From a virus (taxonomy: Duplodnaviria; Caudoviricetes), in IMG/VR virus record IMGVR_UViG_3300016654_000295, positions 1 to 38,122 of that record: a DNA stretch of 38,122 bases; one strand, given 5' to 3'. Below the pieces are notes generated by a model. That model worked only from the letters and a program-made list of their open reading frames with translations, searched no databases and was not told where the DNA came from. Below are positions 2,086-37,345 of this stretch, piece after piece. Numbering within the stretch: the first letter of the stretch is position 1; every line of letters starts with the position of its first letter. The translations under genes and the position numbers were made by a program.

Positions 2086-2967
2086 TCATTCGCCACAGAA
2101 GCAGACGATCGCTTCGTCGTGGTCGGCGAACATGTCGAACTGGGTGTCGGAGTAGTCGATCATTTGCTGATAGCTGGGACGGTCGAACCGAAAGCGGGCG
2201 CCGTCGCCGGTGAACCTGCCGCCAGAAACCACCTCGCTTTCCATCCTGGCCCACCATTCCGCCTTGGGCCGGTCGCTGGCGATGATCGAGTAGACCTGTT
2301 TGGCGCCCTTGAGGAAGCAAAGGTCGCAGTTGCCTTCCAGAGTGCGGCCGTTGATTGTCGCCAACATCAGATCAAATGGTTGGCTGGACCAGAAGTCCGT
2401 CACGTCCTGCACGCCGACACCTGCATCCGCCAAGGGCATCACCATCGTGGCCCACTTGCTTTCGCTGGTGCTTTTGCGGTGCCTGATCTTCACGACCCGA
2501 TGCGGCTCGTCGGCGCGTATGCCTATCATCATGTCCACCGGCGCCGTCTCGGTCGAAAGGCCGAGGCTGCGCAGGTACTTGTGAATGATCCTGATTTTGA
2601 GGTCGATTGTGCAGAACCTGGTGACCGGGTTGGGCAAGTACTTACGTTTGTGTATTAGCGCTTCGAACGGCTCGCCTTGGCGGCTGGCAGTGGCGTAATC
2701 CACCACTGCAAAACCGGCGTCATCGTCGCGAAACTCCAGCCATACAATGGGCACTACCCAGCGTTCGGCGCATTCCCGGACAAACTCCAGGGTGGCCGGG
2801 TGTTCCTTCCCGGTATTGGCGAAGGTGACAACCAGATCGCTCAAGTCATCGTTGTTGTCCAGCACCTGGCGCAGCATGTAGGCGCTGGTACGGCCGCCGG
2901 AAAAACTGACTACGGTGGGCCCAGACAGTGAGTAATGCGTCTTTGGGTGGGGGGCTGCGCAGCTCAT
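2086..2967 (-). CDS. PAPS-reductase-like (PP-loop) protein with Cys cluster
   Basis: SFSGGRTS PP-loop, FANTGKEH, RFCTIDLK, GIRADE, GNCDLCFLK, C-terminal CFC. Start inferred from ATGA overlap with the upstream gene. Confidence 0.85.
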   Translation of the reverse strand: MSCAAPHPKTHYSLSGPTVVSFSGGRTSAYMLRQVLDNNDDLSDLVVTFANTGKEHPATLEFVRECAERWVVPIVWLEFRDDDAGFAVVDYATASRQGEPFEALIHKRKYLPNPVTRFCTIDLKIRIIHKYLRSLGLSTETAPVDMMIGIRADEPHRVVKIRHRKSTSESKWATMVMPLADAGVGVQDVTDFWSSQPFDLMLATINGRTLEGNCDLCFLKGAKQVYSIIASDRPKAEWWARMESEVVSGGRFTGDGARFRFDRPSYQQMIDYSDTQFDMFADHDEAIVCFCGE

Positions 2968-3509: not shown

Positions 3510-3856
3510 GCTTCGTCCTCCACGATTGGTTGTGGAGGGTAGGCAGCTACCCACATCTTTGCGGCGAAGGCAGTGAGCTGGCGCCGTTGCTGGGTTGCTT
3601 TGGTCTGCATTAAGTCGCTACCCGGGAACGCTTGCCACGTTTCAGTGGCGATGCGCAGGGTGGTGCCGATGTTGGTCAGTAGTTCGTGATCTTCAATAGT
3701 GCAGGTCGGACGGCTTGTTTGTTGTTTGCGCGCTGCGTGAAGGCCGTTATAAAGACCGCGTGCATAGGCTTTCTTGCTTGCTTTGATCAGGTAGAAGGTG
3801 GTTGCGAGCCAGCCGACCAGCAGGCCGAAGGCGATGATGTAAGTTTCGATTTGCAT
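3506..3856 (-). CDS. Hypothetical protein with N-terminal transmembrane segment
   Basis: GAGG RBS, hydrophobic N-terminus, ATGA coupling to the HD gene. Confidence 0.7.
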   Translation of the reverse strand: MQIETYIIAFGLLVGWLATTFYLIKASKKAYARGLYNGLHAARKQQTSRPTCTIEDHELLTNIGTTLRIATETWQAFPGSDLMQTKATQQRRQLTAFAAKMWVAAYPPQPIVEDEA

Positions 3857-3930
3857 GTGCTGTATGCCTCGATTAGAGCCCGCCGCCGGACAGTTTTGGT
3901 GAGAGGACGGCGGCGGGGTGTTGCAGGTGG

Positions 3931-4740
3931 TTAACCCAGGTTGAAGGTGCCGATAGTCAAGGTCGCGGAACCGCCGACTTCTTTTTGAACGACTTGTTTG
4001 AACTCTTGCGCCAGGTCTTCGCGCAGCTGTGCTTCGCCAATCCAGCGCAGGCGGAGTGCGGGTTTATCGCCGCCAGTCAGTACGGCTACGCGCAAGCGGA
4101 TGGTGCGTGCGGTCAACCCTTCGTAAGGAGCTACGGTGAACAGGAATTCAGCCGGCAGACCTTCTGAGGACTTGGCCTCGATCTGGTCCATCGCCGAACG
4201 GGAAGCGCTCATGTCGCCAACTACGTGTTCGCTCTTGCGTGCTTGCTCGATGCTGATGGAGCGAATCGCTCCGGCAGCCTTGCGCAGATCGATCTCTTTG
4301 TCGTCAGCGTCCAAGGCTTTCAGGTTCGGTGCCCAGTCCTCGATCCAGTCGCTGAGATCCTTCTGGGCGTGCTGGCGTTGTGCGGCGCATTCAAGTGCAA
4401 GGAACGCGGCAGTCTTCTTCAGGCCGAGGGTTGCGGTGTAATCACCATGACCCGGCTCCGCTGCGTCACCGAGGTTGAAGTACACCGTGCAGGCCATGGC
4501 GTCACCGTCTACAAAGCCCACAGCAGCTGGGCCTTTTGCAGCGACTACGTAGTCGGCGAAGTCTTTCAGCGAGTGGGTGGTCAGCGAGCCACGGAAGCGG
4601 CTACGCAGCTCTTGAAACTTTTCGATACTGTGGATCTTGACGTCGGCCGGCAGAGCCAGAACTGGCGTGAAGGTGCCCAACGATTTGGCGTGGGCGAGCA
4701 GGGCAGTGTCTTGAATCAGTTGAATTGCACGAGCTTCCAT
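3931..4740 (-). CDS. yfdQ: DUF2303 (YfdQ-like) protein
   Basis: RSRFRGSLTTHSLKDF, QKDLSDWIEDW and PYEGL motifs; synteny with YfdP- and YfdR-like genes. Confidence 0.8.
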   Translation of the reverse strand: MEARAIQLIQDTALLAHAKSLGTFTPVLALPADVKIHSIEKFQELRSRFRGSLTTHSLKDFADYVVAAKGPAAVGFVDGDAMACTVYFNLGDAAEPGHGDYTATLGLKKTAAFLALECAAQRQHAQKDLSDWIEDWAPNLKALDADDKEIDLRKAAGAIRSISIEQARKSEHVVGDMSASRSAMDQIEAKSSEGLPAEFLFTVAPYEGLTARTIRLRVAVLTGGDKPALRLRWIGEAQLREDLAQEFKQVVQKEVGGSATLTIGTFNLG

Positions 4741-4784
4741 TGGATCTATTCCTGTTTTGGTGAGAGGTATGGAGTGGTGAAGCG

Positions 4785-5135: not shown

Positions 5136-5195
5136 GTGCTGTGCCTCATTGGTGAGTTGCTGTTTGCCCCTGGGCGGCAGGGGCTGCCGTTTGAA

Positions 5196-6091: not shown

Positions 6092-6673
6092 TCAGGCGGT
6101 TATATGTTCGGATTGCTGCTGGCTGCGGCGAACCATGAGGAACACCTCATCCAGCGAACGCAGGAACTCTTCCACCGTGCCGTAGTTGGTCAGCGTCAGA
6201 TCATCCTTATGAGCTGCAATCCCAGCCTCGCTGATATGCGGGTTTACGCCTTGTGCGTCGGGCCGAAAAATATGGATGACCGTGCCGCCGCGCCGACGAA
6301 TCAGGTGTGCTTCGTTTTCGAAGCGCACGTCGCTAATGACGAAGCCCAGCACCGCGCCCAGTGCCTTCGTCATGTAGTCGAGGTTCTGTTCGGCGAGCTT
6401 CACCCAGACATCTGGGTGCACGGTGTTGCGTGCCCACTCGGTGCCCATCGACTGCATCAGTTGACGGGGCGAGCAGTCCAGCCAAGCTAGTGGCTGCTCC
6501 TTGCGGTCGCCTTCAAAGTCGGTAGGGTCAAGGTTGAAGATCGCCATCAGGCCATCGCGGAGCGGATCGGCGAAGGCGTAGTGCTCCAGCAGGTAAGTAC
6601 CAACCAAGTGTTCGGCGGCGGTCGATTTGCCGGAGCGGGCGCGGCCGGTGAGGCCAATGAGGATCGGCTTCAT
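6092..6673 (-). CDS. Deoxynucleoside monophosphate kinase (T4 gp1-like)
   Basis: GLTGRARSGKST P-loop, FADPLR, PRQLMQSMGTEWAR, ISDVRFENE, HISE. Confidence 0.9.
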   Translation of the reverse strand: MKPILIGLTGRARSGKSTAAEHLVGTYLLEHYAFADPLRDGLMAIFNLDPTDFEGDRKEQPLAWLDCSPRQLMQSMGTEWARNTVHPDVWVKLAEQNLDYMTKALGAVLGFVISDVRFENEAHLIRRRGGTVIHIFRPDAQGVNPHISEAGIAAHKDDLTLTNYGTVEEFLRSLDEVFLMVRRSQQQSEHITA

Positions 6674-7005
6674 GCTGCGGCATCCATGTCGAGGTAGCTT
6701 TGGGTCCAGGCCAGTAGGTCTATTAGCTCTTGACGGGCCAACTCTTCGGTTATGCGCTCTGGAAAACGGTGGGTGGATGTGAATGCGGCAGACTTATGCG
6801 GATGTTTTGGGCGGTCCTTGGCATCGTAGTCGTAATTTGTCGGGCGCAGCGTCACGTCGATGTCGCCAACGTGGCCGGAGAGACCGTAGAAGGCATGCCA
6901 ATTGCCCTGAGCGTTGATCAAGAGGCAAGTGGACAGGATCTGCAGCATCAACTCTTCGGTGGTGGGTTTAGTGCTGGGGGTGTTGCTGTGCTGTGTCGTT
7001 TGCAT
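6670..7005 (-). CDS. Hypothetical protein, first gene of leftward early operon
   Basis: 111-aa ORF just downstream of the predicted PL; ATGA overlap with the kinase gene. Confidence 0.75.
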   Translation of the reverse strand: MQTTQHSNTPSTKPTTEELMLQILSTCLLINAQGNWHAFYGLSGHVGDIDVTLRPTNYDYDAKDRPKHPHKSAAFTSTHRFPERITEELARQELIDLLAWTQSYLDMDAAA

Positions 7006-7038
7006 GGTTCGTACTCTTTGGTGAGAGGAGTACGAGCG

Positions 7039-7098
7039 AGACTATACATACGTTTTGATATGGTCAATACGTTAGCGAATAAATATACGTTTTAGGAT
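7039..7098 (-). promoter_or_regulatory. Leftward early promoter (PL-like) with three operator-like sites
   Basis: Minus-strand TTGACC-N17-TAGTCT (7067-7039). Sites ATACGTTTTGATAT (7048), ATACGTTAGCGAAT (7067) and ATACGTTTTAGGAT (7085) resemble ATAC-N6-GTAT. Confidence 0.65.
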
Positions 7099-7206: not shown

Positions 7207-7707
7207 TTATTTTGGAGGCCCTACGAATAGCAGTTTCACTTCGGACAGACGATAGGTGCTAAGCGTCTCAATAAGGTCGGGATGATCGTCGTAGATCTCG
7301 AAAACGTATTGATGGATGAAGCCTTGGATAGCCTGAGCGAGCAGCTTTTCTTGCTCAAGCGACGTGAAAGTTTTCGTGCCGACATCATCGACAACCCTTA
7401 TTTCCAGTTTAGTTCTTACCTTGGCGGGCTTGCTGGGCGGGCGTTTTGTAGCGATGGGGGGGCTATCGTTGCCTGTGCTGATCGGCTCTCTCGGTGAGGG
7501 GGCGGAGTCCTGTCTGCCGGTCCATAGCCAGGTTGCAGTGACAGATAGCGCCTTGGCTATTTTCTCGATGTTCTGCTGTCGGGGGCTCTGCGACTCGCCC
7601 GACATTATGCGGTGAATGGTCGGTTGCGGAACGCCTGAGAGGCGCCCGAGTTCCGTTTGCGATAGACCTAGCTCGGTCATTCGGTCGGCTATTCGTTTGC
7701 GAAGCAT
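7207..7707 (-). CDS. cI: CI-like repressor, XRE helix-turn-helix, no S24 peptidase domain recognisable
   Basis: LSQTELGRLSGVPQPTIHRIMSG HTH; divergent from cro. Start moved to 7707 because the longer ORF overlaps cro and the promoters. Confidence 0.85.
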   Translation of the reverse strand: MLRKRIADRMTELGLSQTELGRLSGVPQPTIHRIMSGESQSPRQQNIEKIAKALSVTATWLWTGRQDSAPSPREPISTGNDSPPIATKRPPSKPAKVRTKLEIRVVDDVGTKTFTSLEQEKLLAQAIQGFIHQYVFEIYDDHPDLIETLSTYRLSEVKLLFVGPPK

Positions 7708-7803: not shown

Positions 7804-7998
7804 ATGAATATCCAAGAAATGCTGAAAGAGCTTCTTAGCCGAGGGCATACCCAGCGCGGTATTGCCGTCCAGATAGGCACCACGCAGCCAACCATTTTTC
7901 GGGCTGTCAATGGTGCGGATGTTAGATACGAATTAGGCAAGGCAATTGAGAATTTCTATACGCAAGAGATCGAGTCAGCTCGACTGAAACGCGCATAG
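7804..7998 (+). CDS. cro: Cro-like HTH protein
   Basis: 64 aa, TQRGIAVQIGTTQPTIFRA HTH, divergent from cI. Confidence 0.85.
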   Translation: MNIQEMLKELLSRGHTQRGIAVQIGTTQPTIFRAVNGADVRYELGKAIENFYTQEIESARLKRA

Positions 7999-8006
7999 AA
8001 GGTGCC

Positions 8007-8233
8007 GGACTGGGGCCTCTCACCAAAGATCCCCCAGCCCAGCGGTGGCGATACCAGCACATACATACCGCCACTTGTAACACCGGCCTGAAACCTCTCA
8101 CCAAAGAAATGCCAGGCCGGTTGCAGCGAGATACATAGGAAGCGTGTAAGTCGCTACATAGCGCGTCGGTCCGGGACCTCTCACCAAGAAATCCCCCGGA
8201 CCGACTGGAACGATGAACAGCACATGCACATCG
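8007..8233. ncRNA. Putative structured RNA/DNA element: array of six hairpins with alternating loop motifs
   Basis: Three inverted repeats with different stems enclose CCTCTCACCAA (8016, 8094, 8177). They alternate with three smaller hairpins, two of which enclose CAGCACAT. Function and strand unknown. Confidence 0.6.
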
Positions 8234-8298
8234 GTCGTGGTCGTAGGATAGGGCGTGCCCCTTTCTGTGGCTAGACCGTAAACGAGGAATTTACGGTT

Positions 8299-8787
8299 AT
8301 GAGTCGAACAGAACAGTCACCGGCCACTGCGCCGGTTCTTCCACTTCGCAAAGCAATCTATCGAGCGGCGCATGATTACCACGGCGGGGTCACCGCTCTG
8401 GCGCTCGATATGGTGATGGATTACGACAGCCTGCAAAAGAAGGTCAAACACGACTTTGAACAGCGCTGGCTCGATCCTGATGAGCTTGAAGAGTTGATAC
8501 GCCTGACGGGCAATCCGTTGTTGTTGGATGCGCTCATGCGGCCCGCTGGTATGGTCTGGTACAAACCCGAAGCAGCCGCCCCGACGAAGACCGCGCTCTT
8601 GGCGGTCAGTAAGGTGCTGCATGAGACGGGACTTTTTGTATCCAGCATGCACGATGGTGCTTCCGATAATGTCTGGGAGCTGCACGAAGTGCAGCTGCTG
8701 GAGAAGCACGGCACCGATGTTATTCGTGCGGTGCTGGGCATTATGGCCGGTGCCCGTGCCGCGATGGAGGCCCGCCAGCATGGTTGA
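8299..8787 (+). CDS. Phage regulatory CII family protein
   Basis: AAHDYHGGVTALA...LQKKV...LIRLTGNPLLLDAL pattern; position after cro; GAGGA RBS. Confidence 0.8.
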   Translation: MSRTEQSPATAPVLPLRKAIYRAAHDYHGGVTALALDMVMDYDSLQKKVKHDFEQRWLDPDELEELIRLTGNPLLLDALMRPAGMVWYKPEAAAPTKTALLAVSKVLHETGLFVSSMHDGASDNVWELHEVQLLEKHGTDVIRAVLGIMAGARAAMEARQHG

Positions 8788-36202: not shown

Positions 36203-37345
36203 GTGGTCAAGGAGTTCGAGTTCATTAACTTTTTCAGAGCAATTGCTGCTCTGTGGGTGCTGGTTGCGCATTGCATGATCTGGGGGGGCTGGTACGGCAT
36301 ACCACTCCCTTCTCCTAAAATTGCAGTGAACCTGTTTATGCTTATATCGGGTTTTTTAATGATGGCTAACGCTACCGCCCGAAGAAACGTAGAACCGTTC
36401 AGTGATCGCAGTAGTTGGTATAAATTCTGGATTAGACGGTACTTCCGACTAGCTCCTGCATACTATCTGTCTCTTGTTGTAGCTGTTATTGCAGGTTCGT
36501 ACTTTTTGTCAGGTTATGGCGAGCTCCAAAAATTGAACCCTGCCGTATGGGGCGGGGGGACAGTATATGATCCGGCTAAGATAAATTACTCGATAGAGAA
36601 TTTGATTCTACACGTGACGTTTTTATTTGGTCTGCATCCCGAATATTCTTTTTCAACTTTTCTCCCTGATTGGAGTTTGAGTTTGGAGATGCAGTTTTAT
36701 GCTGTGTTCCCTTTGCTGTTTCTTGTTTTTTCAAGAACGGGCGTTGCAAAAGCTTCGTTGTTGGTTGGTATTCCTATGATCTTTATAGGGGTGTGGGTGA
36801 ATACAAAATTCCACTATATTGAGCCATCACTACTTATTCTGCGCCTGCATTATTTTTTGGCGGGCATGGTTTTATTTGCCGCGATGAACGCGGCTATAGC
36901 AGTGAAGCGACAGTTGTGTCTTTTTATATGCGCGCTATTGCTTGTTTTTATTGGCTCAAAAAAAGAGCACGATTATTTTGTCTTGCCAGGTTTTCTTGCG
37001 CTAATGTTTGTGCTGGGGAAGGTAGAGCAAGCAGGGAATTTACCTAATAATATTGAAAAAGTATTCAATAGTAAGATTGTTCATTTCGCATCAGAGACCT
37101 CATATGGGCTTTATTTGTTTCATGGTTTCTTTATATCATTGAGTGGGTTGGTAATATCAGGGTCGCCTTATCTCTTAGAATTTTCGCCTGGGGTGCGAGT
37201 TGGTTTAATGGTCCCTTTTGTCCTGATTTTATCCTACCTTACTGCGTATATTGTAAACGTTACTATAGAAAAGCCTGGAATAAATATAGGTCGTCAGTTT
37301 GCGCGGAAGTTTGCTGCTAAGACGTTGCCGGCAAAACCTGCGTGA
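36203..37345 (+). CDS. Acyltransferase-3 family membrane protein (OafA/Oac-like)
   Basis: FRAIAALWVLVAH, FMLISGFLM, RRYFRLAPAY, WSLSLEMQFY, SYGLYLFH. Confidence 0.92.
   Translation: MVKEFEFINFFRAIAALWVLVAHCMIWGGWYGIPLPSPKIAVNLFMLISGFLMMANATARRNVEPFSDRSSWYKFWIRRYFRLAPAYYLSLVVAVIAGSYFLSGYGELQKLNPAVWGGGTVYDPAKINYSIENLILHVTFLFGLHPEYSFSTFLPDWSLSLEMQFYAVFPLLFLVFSRTGVAKASLLVGIPMIFIGVWVNTKFHYIEPSLLILRLHYFLAGMVLFAAMNAAIAVKRQLCLFICALLLVFIGSKKEHDYFVLPGFLALMFVLGKVEQAGNLPNNIEKVFNSKIVHFASETSYGLYLFHGFFISLSGLVISGSPYLLEFSPGVRVGLMVPFVLILSYLTAYIVNVTIEKPGINIGRQFARKFAAKTLPAKPA

What the first reader, a model, noticed from the sequence alone, without database searches (positions are those of the whole stretch)
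8007..8233. Array of alternating hairpins with conserved loops and unrelated stems between cro and cII
Seen: three large hairpins (8007-8040, 8083-8120, 8165-8205) have different stems but enclose the same CCTCTCACCAA(A)GA. They alternate with three smaller hairpins (8045-8074, 8125-8155, 8211-8233), two enclosing CAGCACAT. Conserved loops on divergent but paired stems point to selection on structure, not recent duplication. I cannot match this to lambda nut, HK022 put, P4 CI or P1 C4 RNA from memory. Inference: an undescribed regulatory RNA, such as a multivalent protein sponge, an antitermination platform or a precursor processed into small RNAs.
Basis: partly seen in the sequence, partly recalled or inferred. 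Interest (0 to 1): 0.88.

Follow-up and report, generated by a model that had tools for sequence, protein, structure and literature searches.

The report
Prophage multi-loop antisense RNA array
The hairpin train between two switch genes of this Pseudomonas-type prophage carries loops that match, and change together with, the start regions of four of the phage's own early genes, so it likely encodes an antisense RNA that is predicted to silence those genes alongside the usual repressor protein.

Summary
The six hairpins are real. Read on the minus strand, the array is complementary to these sites.

A conserved leftward promoter lies next to cII, and its predicted start (8238) is at the base of the first stem. 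Related phages from Pseudomonas to Halomonas carry 1-3 or more loop units. Loop alleles change together with the target sites: 183 of 210 sites match their own array against 84 after shuffling, and 6 of 6 independent pairs agree.

Best reading (0.7): a likely CII-activated antisense RNA that blocks translation of early-left genes. It would work like P1 C4, but it is not a C4 member (no Rfam hit, no cloverleaf, separate transcript).

The strand is not proven. Wobble pairs favour minus in some tests and not in others, the cII leader folds on plus, and no stranded RNA data were obtained. A plus-strand protein decoy remains possible.

The scan noted this element before in at least 8 other genomes; my paper searches found no description.

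The parts
8004..8043 (-). A hairpin 1 (3'-most in the predicted RNA), 12-bp stem, loop UUUGGUGAGAGG; followed on the minus strand by ACCUUCU
   Evidence: 14 nt shared with target T1
8045..8074 (-). B hairpin 1, loop AUGUGCUG
8082..8121 (-). A hairpin 2
8125..8155 (.). hairpin C, no B motif, no conserved target found; likely a spacer
8165..8205 (-). A hairpin 3
8210..8238 (-). B hairpin 3 (5'-most); its stem begins at the predicted +1 (8238)
   Evidence: 12 nt shared with T4
8245..8273 (-). predicted leftward sigma-70-type promoter: -35 TAGCCA (8273-8268), 17 nt, -10 TATCCT (8250-8245)
   Evidence: missed by the generic promoter scan
8275..8297 (.). inverted repeat ACCGTAAA-N7-TTTACGGT: candidate CII site just upstream of the -35, and/or plus-strand hairpin around the cII ribosome-binding site
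   Evidence: role inferred
8237..8274 (+). hairpin P in the cII leader, covering the leftward promoter; folds on the plus strand
   Evidence: (plus strand lower in energy in 76 of 79 loci)
6987..7035 (-). target T1: A site in a hairpin loop (7015-7028) before the first leftward gene (ATG 7005); B site (6987-6994) in its first codons
5133..5156 (-). target T2: partial A site (5149-5156) and B site over the ATG of the 116-aa PHROG 204 gene
4738..4768 (-). target T3: A site (4756-4768) just upstream of the ribosome-binding site of the DUF2303 (YfdQ-like) gene; no B site
3852..3917 (-). target T4: A site in a hairpin loop (hairpin 3879-3917), then GAGG and a B site over the ATG at 3856
7804..7998 (+). 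cro-like gene
8299..8787 (+). 186-type cII gene (PF06892)
7207..7704 (-). cI-like repressor gene

Best explanation
The array likely encodes a leftward antisense RNA of about 240 nt whose hairpin loops are complementary to four translation-start regions of the phage's leftward early operon and are predicted to pair with them and block their translation. Steps: (1) Shown: the loops and the four sites are complementary, and they change together across relatives. (2) Inferred: a conserved promoter beside the cII start fires leftward from about 8238. It is probably activated by CII bound at the inverted repeat above the -35, by analogy with pE of phage 186, so the RNA would be made when lysogeny is being established. 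(3) Inferred: the variable A loop finds an A site, often itself in a hairpin loop, and the conserved B loop covers the ribosome-binding site or start codon, as the a' and b' loops of P1 C4 do. This would damp the operon that holds the Ant-like, excisionase-like and YfdQ-like genes. (4) Inferred: the rightward cro-cII transcript is the exact complement of the RNA, so lytic transcription would neutralise it, giving an RNA toggle on top of CI and Cro. The three A loops here are an expanded form of a one-unit element and would raise dose or valency.
For: Exact 11-mer 6 times against 0.02 expected, three of them at start regions; shared stretches of 8-14 nt. Allele co-variation: 183 of 210 target A sites in 105 of 115 dereplicated loci carry an allele of their own array; shuffled mean 84, maximum 114. 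On a CII tree of 94 rows, 93 have the same majority allele in array and targets; the array allele changes 14 times and the target allele 13 times; 6 of 6 independent pairs agree, p 0.03. The two bases after the core also match: 95 of 116 against 50. Halomonas phage H4907 (CII 25% identical) has different A and B loops and matching sites. Promoter: anchored on the -35 only, the -10 positions read T, A, T in 84, 84, 83 of 92 loci while most of the spacer varies; a second module away from cII carries its own copy in 10 of 10 loci examined. In 28 single-unit loci wobble pairs favour minus in the A stem (23 to 2) and B stem (61 to 21), and flip to plus (76 to 2) beyond the predicted +1. No residue column in 21 shared ORF families separates two alleles. 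C4 logic of a variable upstream loop and a conserved loop over the ribosome-binding site: PMC5320573, passages. 186 CII activates pE: PMC8538670, passages.
Against: No transcript, strand or end was observed: four raw-read runs gave 0 reads and RNA contigs carry no strand. The wobble test is not decisive over all loci: 77 minus to 25 plus by hairpin, but 23 to 20 by distinct context (18 to 16). The first crude version gave the wrong strand for the target hairpins. Two B-stem pairs counted were chosen from the minus-strand fold. Target mismatches show no bias towards G-U pairing with the minus strand. The cII leader folds on the plus strand, and some relatives carry further A hairpins on the cII side of the promoter with plus-strand wobbles (10 to 1), so plus-strand structure is under selection too. 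There is no canonical terminator at the predicted 3' end. The generic promoter scan found nothing. CII dependence rests on analogy only. Co-variation alone does not separate RNA pairing from a protein reader.
Confidence: 0.7

Rival explanations
1. The plus strand is the working one: a phage or host RNA-binding protein binds the A and B motifs at the start regions to control translation, and the array in the cro-cII transcript is a multivalent decoy that titrates it.
For: The array has the same sense and order (A then B) as the targets, and pR transcription is expected to cross it. Plus-strand loops are more open. The cII leader folds on plus. The wobble test by context is even and target mismatches show no G-U bias.
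Against: It needs a reader whose specificity switched about 14 times, also between phages with nearly identical CII. No column in 21 shared ORF families separates two alleles; the best leave-one-out accuracy is 0.91 with scattered residues (a crude test, covering only about 7 kb each side of cII). It leaves the conserved leftward promoter starting at the stem base unexplained.
Confidence: 0.15
2. The motifs are nut- or put-like antitermination or Rho-control signals: T1 at the start of the leftward operon and the array after cro sit where lambda has nutL and nutR (lambda layout recalled).
For: Positions of T1 and of the array; the C-rich loops resemble Rho-loading sequence (recalled).
Against: T2-T4 lie at internal start codons, with B overlapping the ATG, which fits translation control. 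No N-like protein was identified, and the first leftward gene of the window keeps only the first codons of the first gene of P. aeruginosa-type relatives.
Confidence: 0.08
3. The leftward promoter is only a pE-type promoter for cI, and the hairpins are its structured leader or processing signals; the matches to start regions have no regulatory role.
For: 186 CII drives cI from pE. No clear terminator follows the array, so read-through to cI is plausible and may hold together with the best reading.
Against: It does not explain why loops and distant start regions switch alleles together.
Confidence: 0.05
4. Neutral duplication or DNA-level repeats.
For: Unit number varies from 1 to 3 or more.
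Against: Compensatory stem changes, conservation to Halomonas, strand-specific placement at start codons.
Confidence: 0.02

Closest known systems
C4 antisense RNA of phages P1 and P7 (Rfam RF01695)
   Same: Two loops pair in trans with a bipartite target; the variable loop binds upstream and gives specificity, the conserved loop covers the ribosome-binding site (PMC5320573 passages). The operon targeted here includes a weakly Ant-like gene (E 3.5e-4).
   Different: No match to RF01695. Unbranched tandem hairpins, not a three-stem cloverleaf of about 77 nt. Made from its own predicted promoter in the cro-cII gap, not from the targeted operon (P1 layout recalled). Up to four target sites spread over 3 kb; loop units multiplied.
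CI RNA of satellite phage P4
   Same: Antisense RNA acting on two-part targets in lysogeny control (PMC4825925 and PMC3632133 passages).
   Different: CI is processed from the transcript that carries seqA and seqC and causes termination; here the RNA and its targets are on different predicted transcripts and the sites lie on start codons.
Lambda OOP and P22 sar RNAs
   Same: Small phage antisense RNAs at the lysis-lysogeny switch; this RNA would also be cis-antisense to the cro-cII transcript (PMC12197685 passages).
   Different: OOP pairs with cII mRNA and sar with ant mRNA, one target each; neither is described there as a loop array with several co-evolving sites.
pE promoter of coliphage 186 (and lambda pRE, recalled)
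   Same: Leftward promoter at the cII start with a CII of the same Pfam family.
   Different: CII dependence is untested here; no RNA array is mentioned for pE in the passages read.

Membership tests
C4 antisense RNA (RF01695) | Scores above the Rfam gathering cut-off (45 bits) | tested here: not met
   0 matches in the window even at E<=10; 0 in 7 related loci
C4 antisense RNA (RF01695) | Three-stem P1-P3 cloverleaf of about 77 nt | tested here: not met
   Folds show side-by-side hairpins with no closing stem around an A-B unit; C4 description
C4 antisense RNA (RF01695) | Variable a' loop pairing upstream and conserved b' loop over the ribosome-binding site | tested here: met
   As complementarity and co-variation only; binding not tested
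C4 antisense RNA (RF01695) | RNase P maturation at the 5' side of the closing stem | tested here: inconclusive
   The leftmost hairpin is followed by RCC on the minus strand in 43 of 100 distinct cases against 0 of 100 on plus, but the plus flank is constrained by the next stem; no RNA ends seen
C4 antisense RNA (RF01695) | Encoded in the operon that carries its targets (recalled for P1) | tested here: not met
   Array in the cro-cII gap with its own predicted promoter; targets 1-4 kb away beyond cI
P4 CI RNA | Targets on both sides of the RNA in one transcript (seqA upstream, seqC downstream) | tested here: not met
   No exact A site upstream of the array on the minus strand; P4 layout
P4 CI RNA | Pairing causes premature transcription termination | not testable with these tools
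   Needs transcript mapping
c4-2 RNA motif | Match to the c4-2 alignment | tested here: inconclusive
   No Rfam family matched; that c4-2 is in Rfam is recalled; the paper's supplement could not be read
lambda nut / HK022 put | boxA-boxB with an N protein, or put stems acting in cis on RNA polymerase (recalled) | not tested
   Only positions compared; no Rfam match

The most novel reading that the evidence does not exclude
A modular guide-array RNA forms a second, RNA-only immunity code in a large family of Pseudomonas and Halomonas prophages. One leftward RNA carries several exchangeable loops that silence several early genes at once, its complement in the cro-cII transcript acts as its built-in sponge, and loop alleles define specificity groups that vary independently of the CI/Cro cassette.
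Probability: 0.35. Interest if true: 0.85.

Novelty: new variant of a known kind. Interest (0 to 1): 0.7.

Why it matters
RNA-based immunity is described for P1/P7, P4 and N15. Lambda-like cI-cro-cII switches are usually read as protein circuits with at most a single-target antisense RNA. If the reading holds, a widespread prophage family (17 of 151 sampled genomes of one Pseudomonas genus), including P. aeruginosa temperate phages, adds a multi-target antisense layer tied to CII. Natural loop alleles give ready-made specificity swaps, so the pairing model is directly testable. The one-, two- and three-unit forms let one ask what valency does to the lysis-lysogeny choice and to superinfection.

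Tried and rejected
Rfam: no match at the gathering cut-offs; only mir-6132 at E 2.1, which is chance; C4 not found.

Generic promoter and terminator scan: no promoter and no terminator at the array.

Wobble-pair strand test: the first version was biased by the A/C-rich motif and gave the wrong strand for target hairpins. Stricter versions are even by distinct context.

G-U bias in target mismatches: none seen; the site list includes chance matches.

Hairpin C as an anti-Shine-Dalgarno loop for T3: rejected, since its AGGAA is not kept in relatives and T3 is the same without it. A leader peptide from the ATG in the B motif: rejected, as the frame differs or the ATG is missing in relatives.

U-rich terminator tail: only about half T at positions 4-7 against 26% background in 77 loci, with positions 1-3 fixed by the pattern; not a canonical terminator.

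14 RNA runs hold it. Four raw-read runs laid 0 reads, which is no test. Contigs of four RNA runs cover the array but give no strand, end or level.

Model search in 151 genomes of the class found only the centre genome; the model is built from close relatives and would miss Halomonas-type forms.

Paper searches found no description of this element; one search was swamped by common words and is uninformative.

Full report
Setting. The window is a 38-kb provirus record with integrase, a leftward early operon, cI-like, cro-like and 186-type cII genes, a DksA-like finger, primase, and head, contractile-tail and lysis genes. Its relatives are Pseudomonas phages. The finding lies in the 300-nt gap between cro (ends 7998) and cII (starts 8299).

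Observation. The six hairpins are present as described. Both strands fold better than all 200 shuffles: z -3.1 for plus and -5.9 for minus. No Rfam family matches the window or 7 related loci. In an alignment of 28 single-unit relatives that I picked by hand, 93% of cells pair and 14 of 39 pairs change on both sides against 4.3 in shuffles. Relatedness and my choice of structure inflate that control.

The A motif occurs exactly 6 times in the window against 0.02 expected: three times on plus in the array and three times on minus at 7018, 4757 and 3896, with a partial copy at 5149. All four lie just upstream of start codons of the leftward operon. At three of them the B motif follows, over the ATG or in the first codons. 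T1 and T4 hold the A site in a hairpin loop. The minus strand of the array is therefore complementary to these sites in the right order, and the plus strand is a copy of them.

Relatives. Five scans and six annotated records gave 332 loci. With the window, 320 had enough upstream sequence and fell into 115 groups. The element is in nearly all: a loose promoter pattern tuned on these data is found in 318 of 320, and in the two exceptions the gap is replaced by other sequence. Among the 320, the window's core motif occurs once in 155, twice in 55, three times in 22 and not at all in 88, which mostly carry other alleles. Three loci whose Cro is over 90% identical to the window's have one unit, and many three-unit loci have no detectable Cro match, so unit number and the repressor cassette assort separately. 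A model of the one-unit form finds 17 of 151 sampled genomes of the genus and only the centre genome among 151 of the class.

Loops and targets change together. A-loop alleles include CTCTCAC, CTCTGAC, CTCTAC, CTCTTAC, CTTACCA and CCCACCAC, and each phage's start regions mostly carry its own allele. In 105 of the 115 groups (10 dropped for short flanks or no scored hairpin), 183 of 210 target sites match their own array; 10,000 shuffles give a mean of 84 and a maximum of 114. On a FastTree CII tree of 94 rows (loci with a scored allele of the CTCT class in both array and targets), 93 agree; the array allele changes 14 times and the target allele 13 times; 6 of 6 independent pairs on supported branches go the same way, p 0.03. 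The next two bases also agree in 95 of 116 sites in 58 loci against 50. Halomonas phage H4907, with a CII 25% identical, has different A and B loops and matching sites. This shows a functional link between array and start regions. It does not by itself say whether RNA pairs with RNA or a protein reads both.

Evidence for the minus strand. Anchored only on a -35-like hexamer (92 of 115 groups), the -10 positions read T, A and T in 84, 84 and 83 loci, with eight apparently shifted by one base, while most of the spacer varies. The predicted +1 (8238) is at the base of the first B stem. Ten of 10 relatives examined with a second module carry the same promoter about 150-180 nt from cII. In the 28-locus alignment wobble pairs favour minus in the A stem (23 to 2) and B stem (61 to 21; 18 of the 21 are at the pair outside the predicted RNA) and favour plus beyond +1 (76 to 2). 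No residue column in 21 ORF families shared by at least 14 of 34 allele-typed loci separates two alleles; this test is crude and covers neither host nor late proteins.

Evidence against, or neutral. Over all loci the strict wobble count is 77 to 25 by hairpin but 23 to 20 by distinct context (18 to 16), and the first version was biased. Target mismatches show no G-U bias. The promoter region itself forms a conserved plus-strand hairpin, lower in energy on plus in 76 of 79 loci. A hairpins on the cII side of the promoter in some relatives have plus-strand wobbles, 10 to 1; these may be extra targets in the cII leader (inference). No canonical terminator closes the predicted RNA. RCC after the last stem (43 of 100) hints at RNase P handling, but the control is weak. 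RNA libraries of a P. aeruginosa-type relative (L158) hold the region, but contigs give no strand and the raw runs had no reads.

Mechanism. I commit to a leftward antisense RNA (0.7). It is likely made from a CII-activated promoter, by analogy with pE of phage 186 (PMC8538670 passages). The A loop would find the target and the B loop would cover the start, lowering translation of the early-left operon while lysogeny is set up. The rightward cro-cII transcript is its exact complement and would neutralise it in lytic growth, which could explain structure on both strands. Complementarity, co-variation and promoter conservation are shown; transcription, CII control, pairing and effect are inferred.

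Comparison. It works like P1/P7 C4, where a variable a' loop binds upstream and the b' loop covers the ribosome-binding site (PMC5320573 passages). It fails membership on Rfam score, shape and gene position. P4 CI has targets flanking it in one transcript (PMC4825925 and PMC3632133 passages). OOP and sar have single targets (PMC12197685 passages). For PMC2864571 I saw passages, the supplement list and a few rows of the C4 and c4-a1b1 alignments, which look unlike this element. For PMC5737381 I saw one passage on c4-2; its supplement could not be read and may bear on novelty. Ten paper searches found no description; the library lacks most subscription papers.

Earlier scan notes. After I had recorded my reading, look-ups showed that the scan reported this element in at least 8 other genomes with the same interpretation; nothing was noted for this genome. 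These notes are not independent evidence. Two call the RNA abundant, which I could not test.

Verdict. A real, conserved, apparently undescribed regulatory element; a new variant of phage antisense control. Interest 0.7.

Noticed in passing
window 8237-8274 (+): A covarying plus-strand hairpin spans almost exactly the predicted leftward promoter, also in Halomonas phages; its role (processing site, cII translation control) is unexplained.
   Followed up: partly
L161, L172, L270, L279, L316, L183, L186, L195, L259, L271, about 180 nt before cII: A second set of A hairpins and a B motif lies between the promoter and cII, with plus-strand wobbles; possibly targets in the cII leader.
   Followed up: partly
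window 6670-7005 (-): The first leftward gene looks like the first codons of the P. aeruginosa-type first gene joined to the body of the second gene; the codons kept are those that carry the B site.
   Followed up: no
L019, L020, L199, L203, L206 cro-cII gaps: Multi-unit arrays mix loop extensions (CCAA, CCAC, CCAT); CCAT has no match among the scored targets of L019 and L020 and might aim at related phages.
   Followed up: no
window 7039-7067 (-): Candidate leftward early promoter (TTGACC, 17 nt, TAGTCT) immediately before target hairpin T1.
   Followed up: no
window 36203-37345 (+): O-acetyltransferase / O-antigen acetylase-like accessory gene.
   Followed up: no
window 2086-2964 (-): PAPS-reductase-domain gene in the leftward operon.
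   Followed up: no
L059, just upstream of cII: Sequence from inside the leftward operon abuts the promoter region directly: cI, cro and the array are missing, likely a defective prophage.
   Followed up: partly
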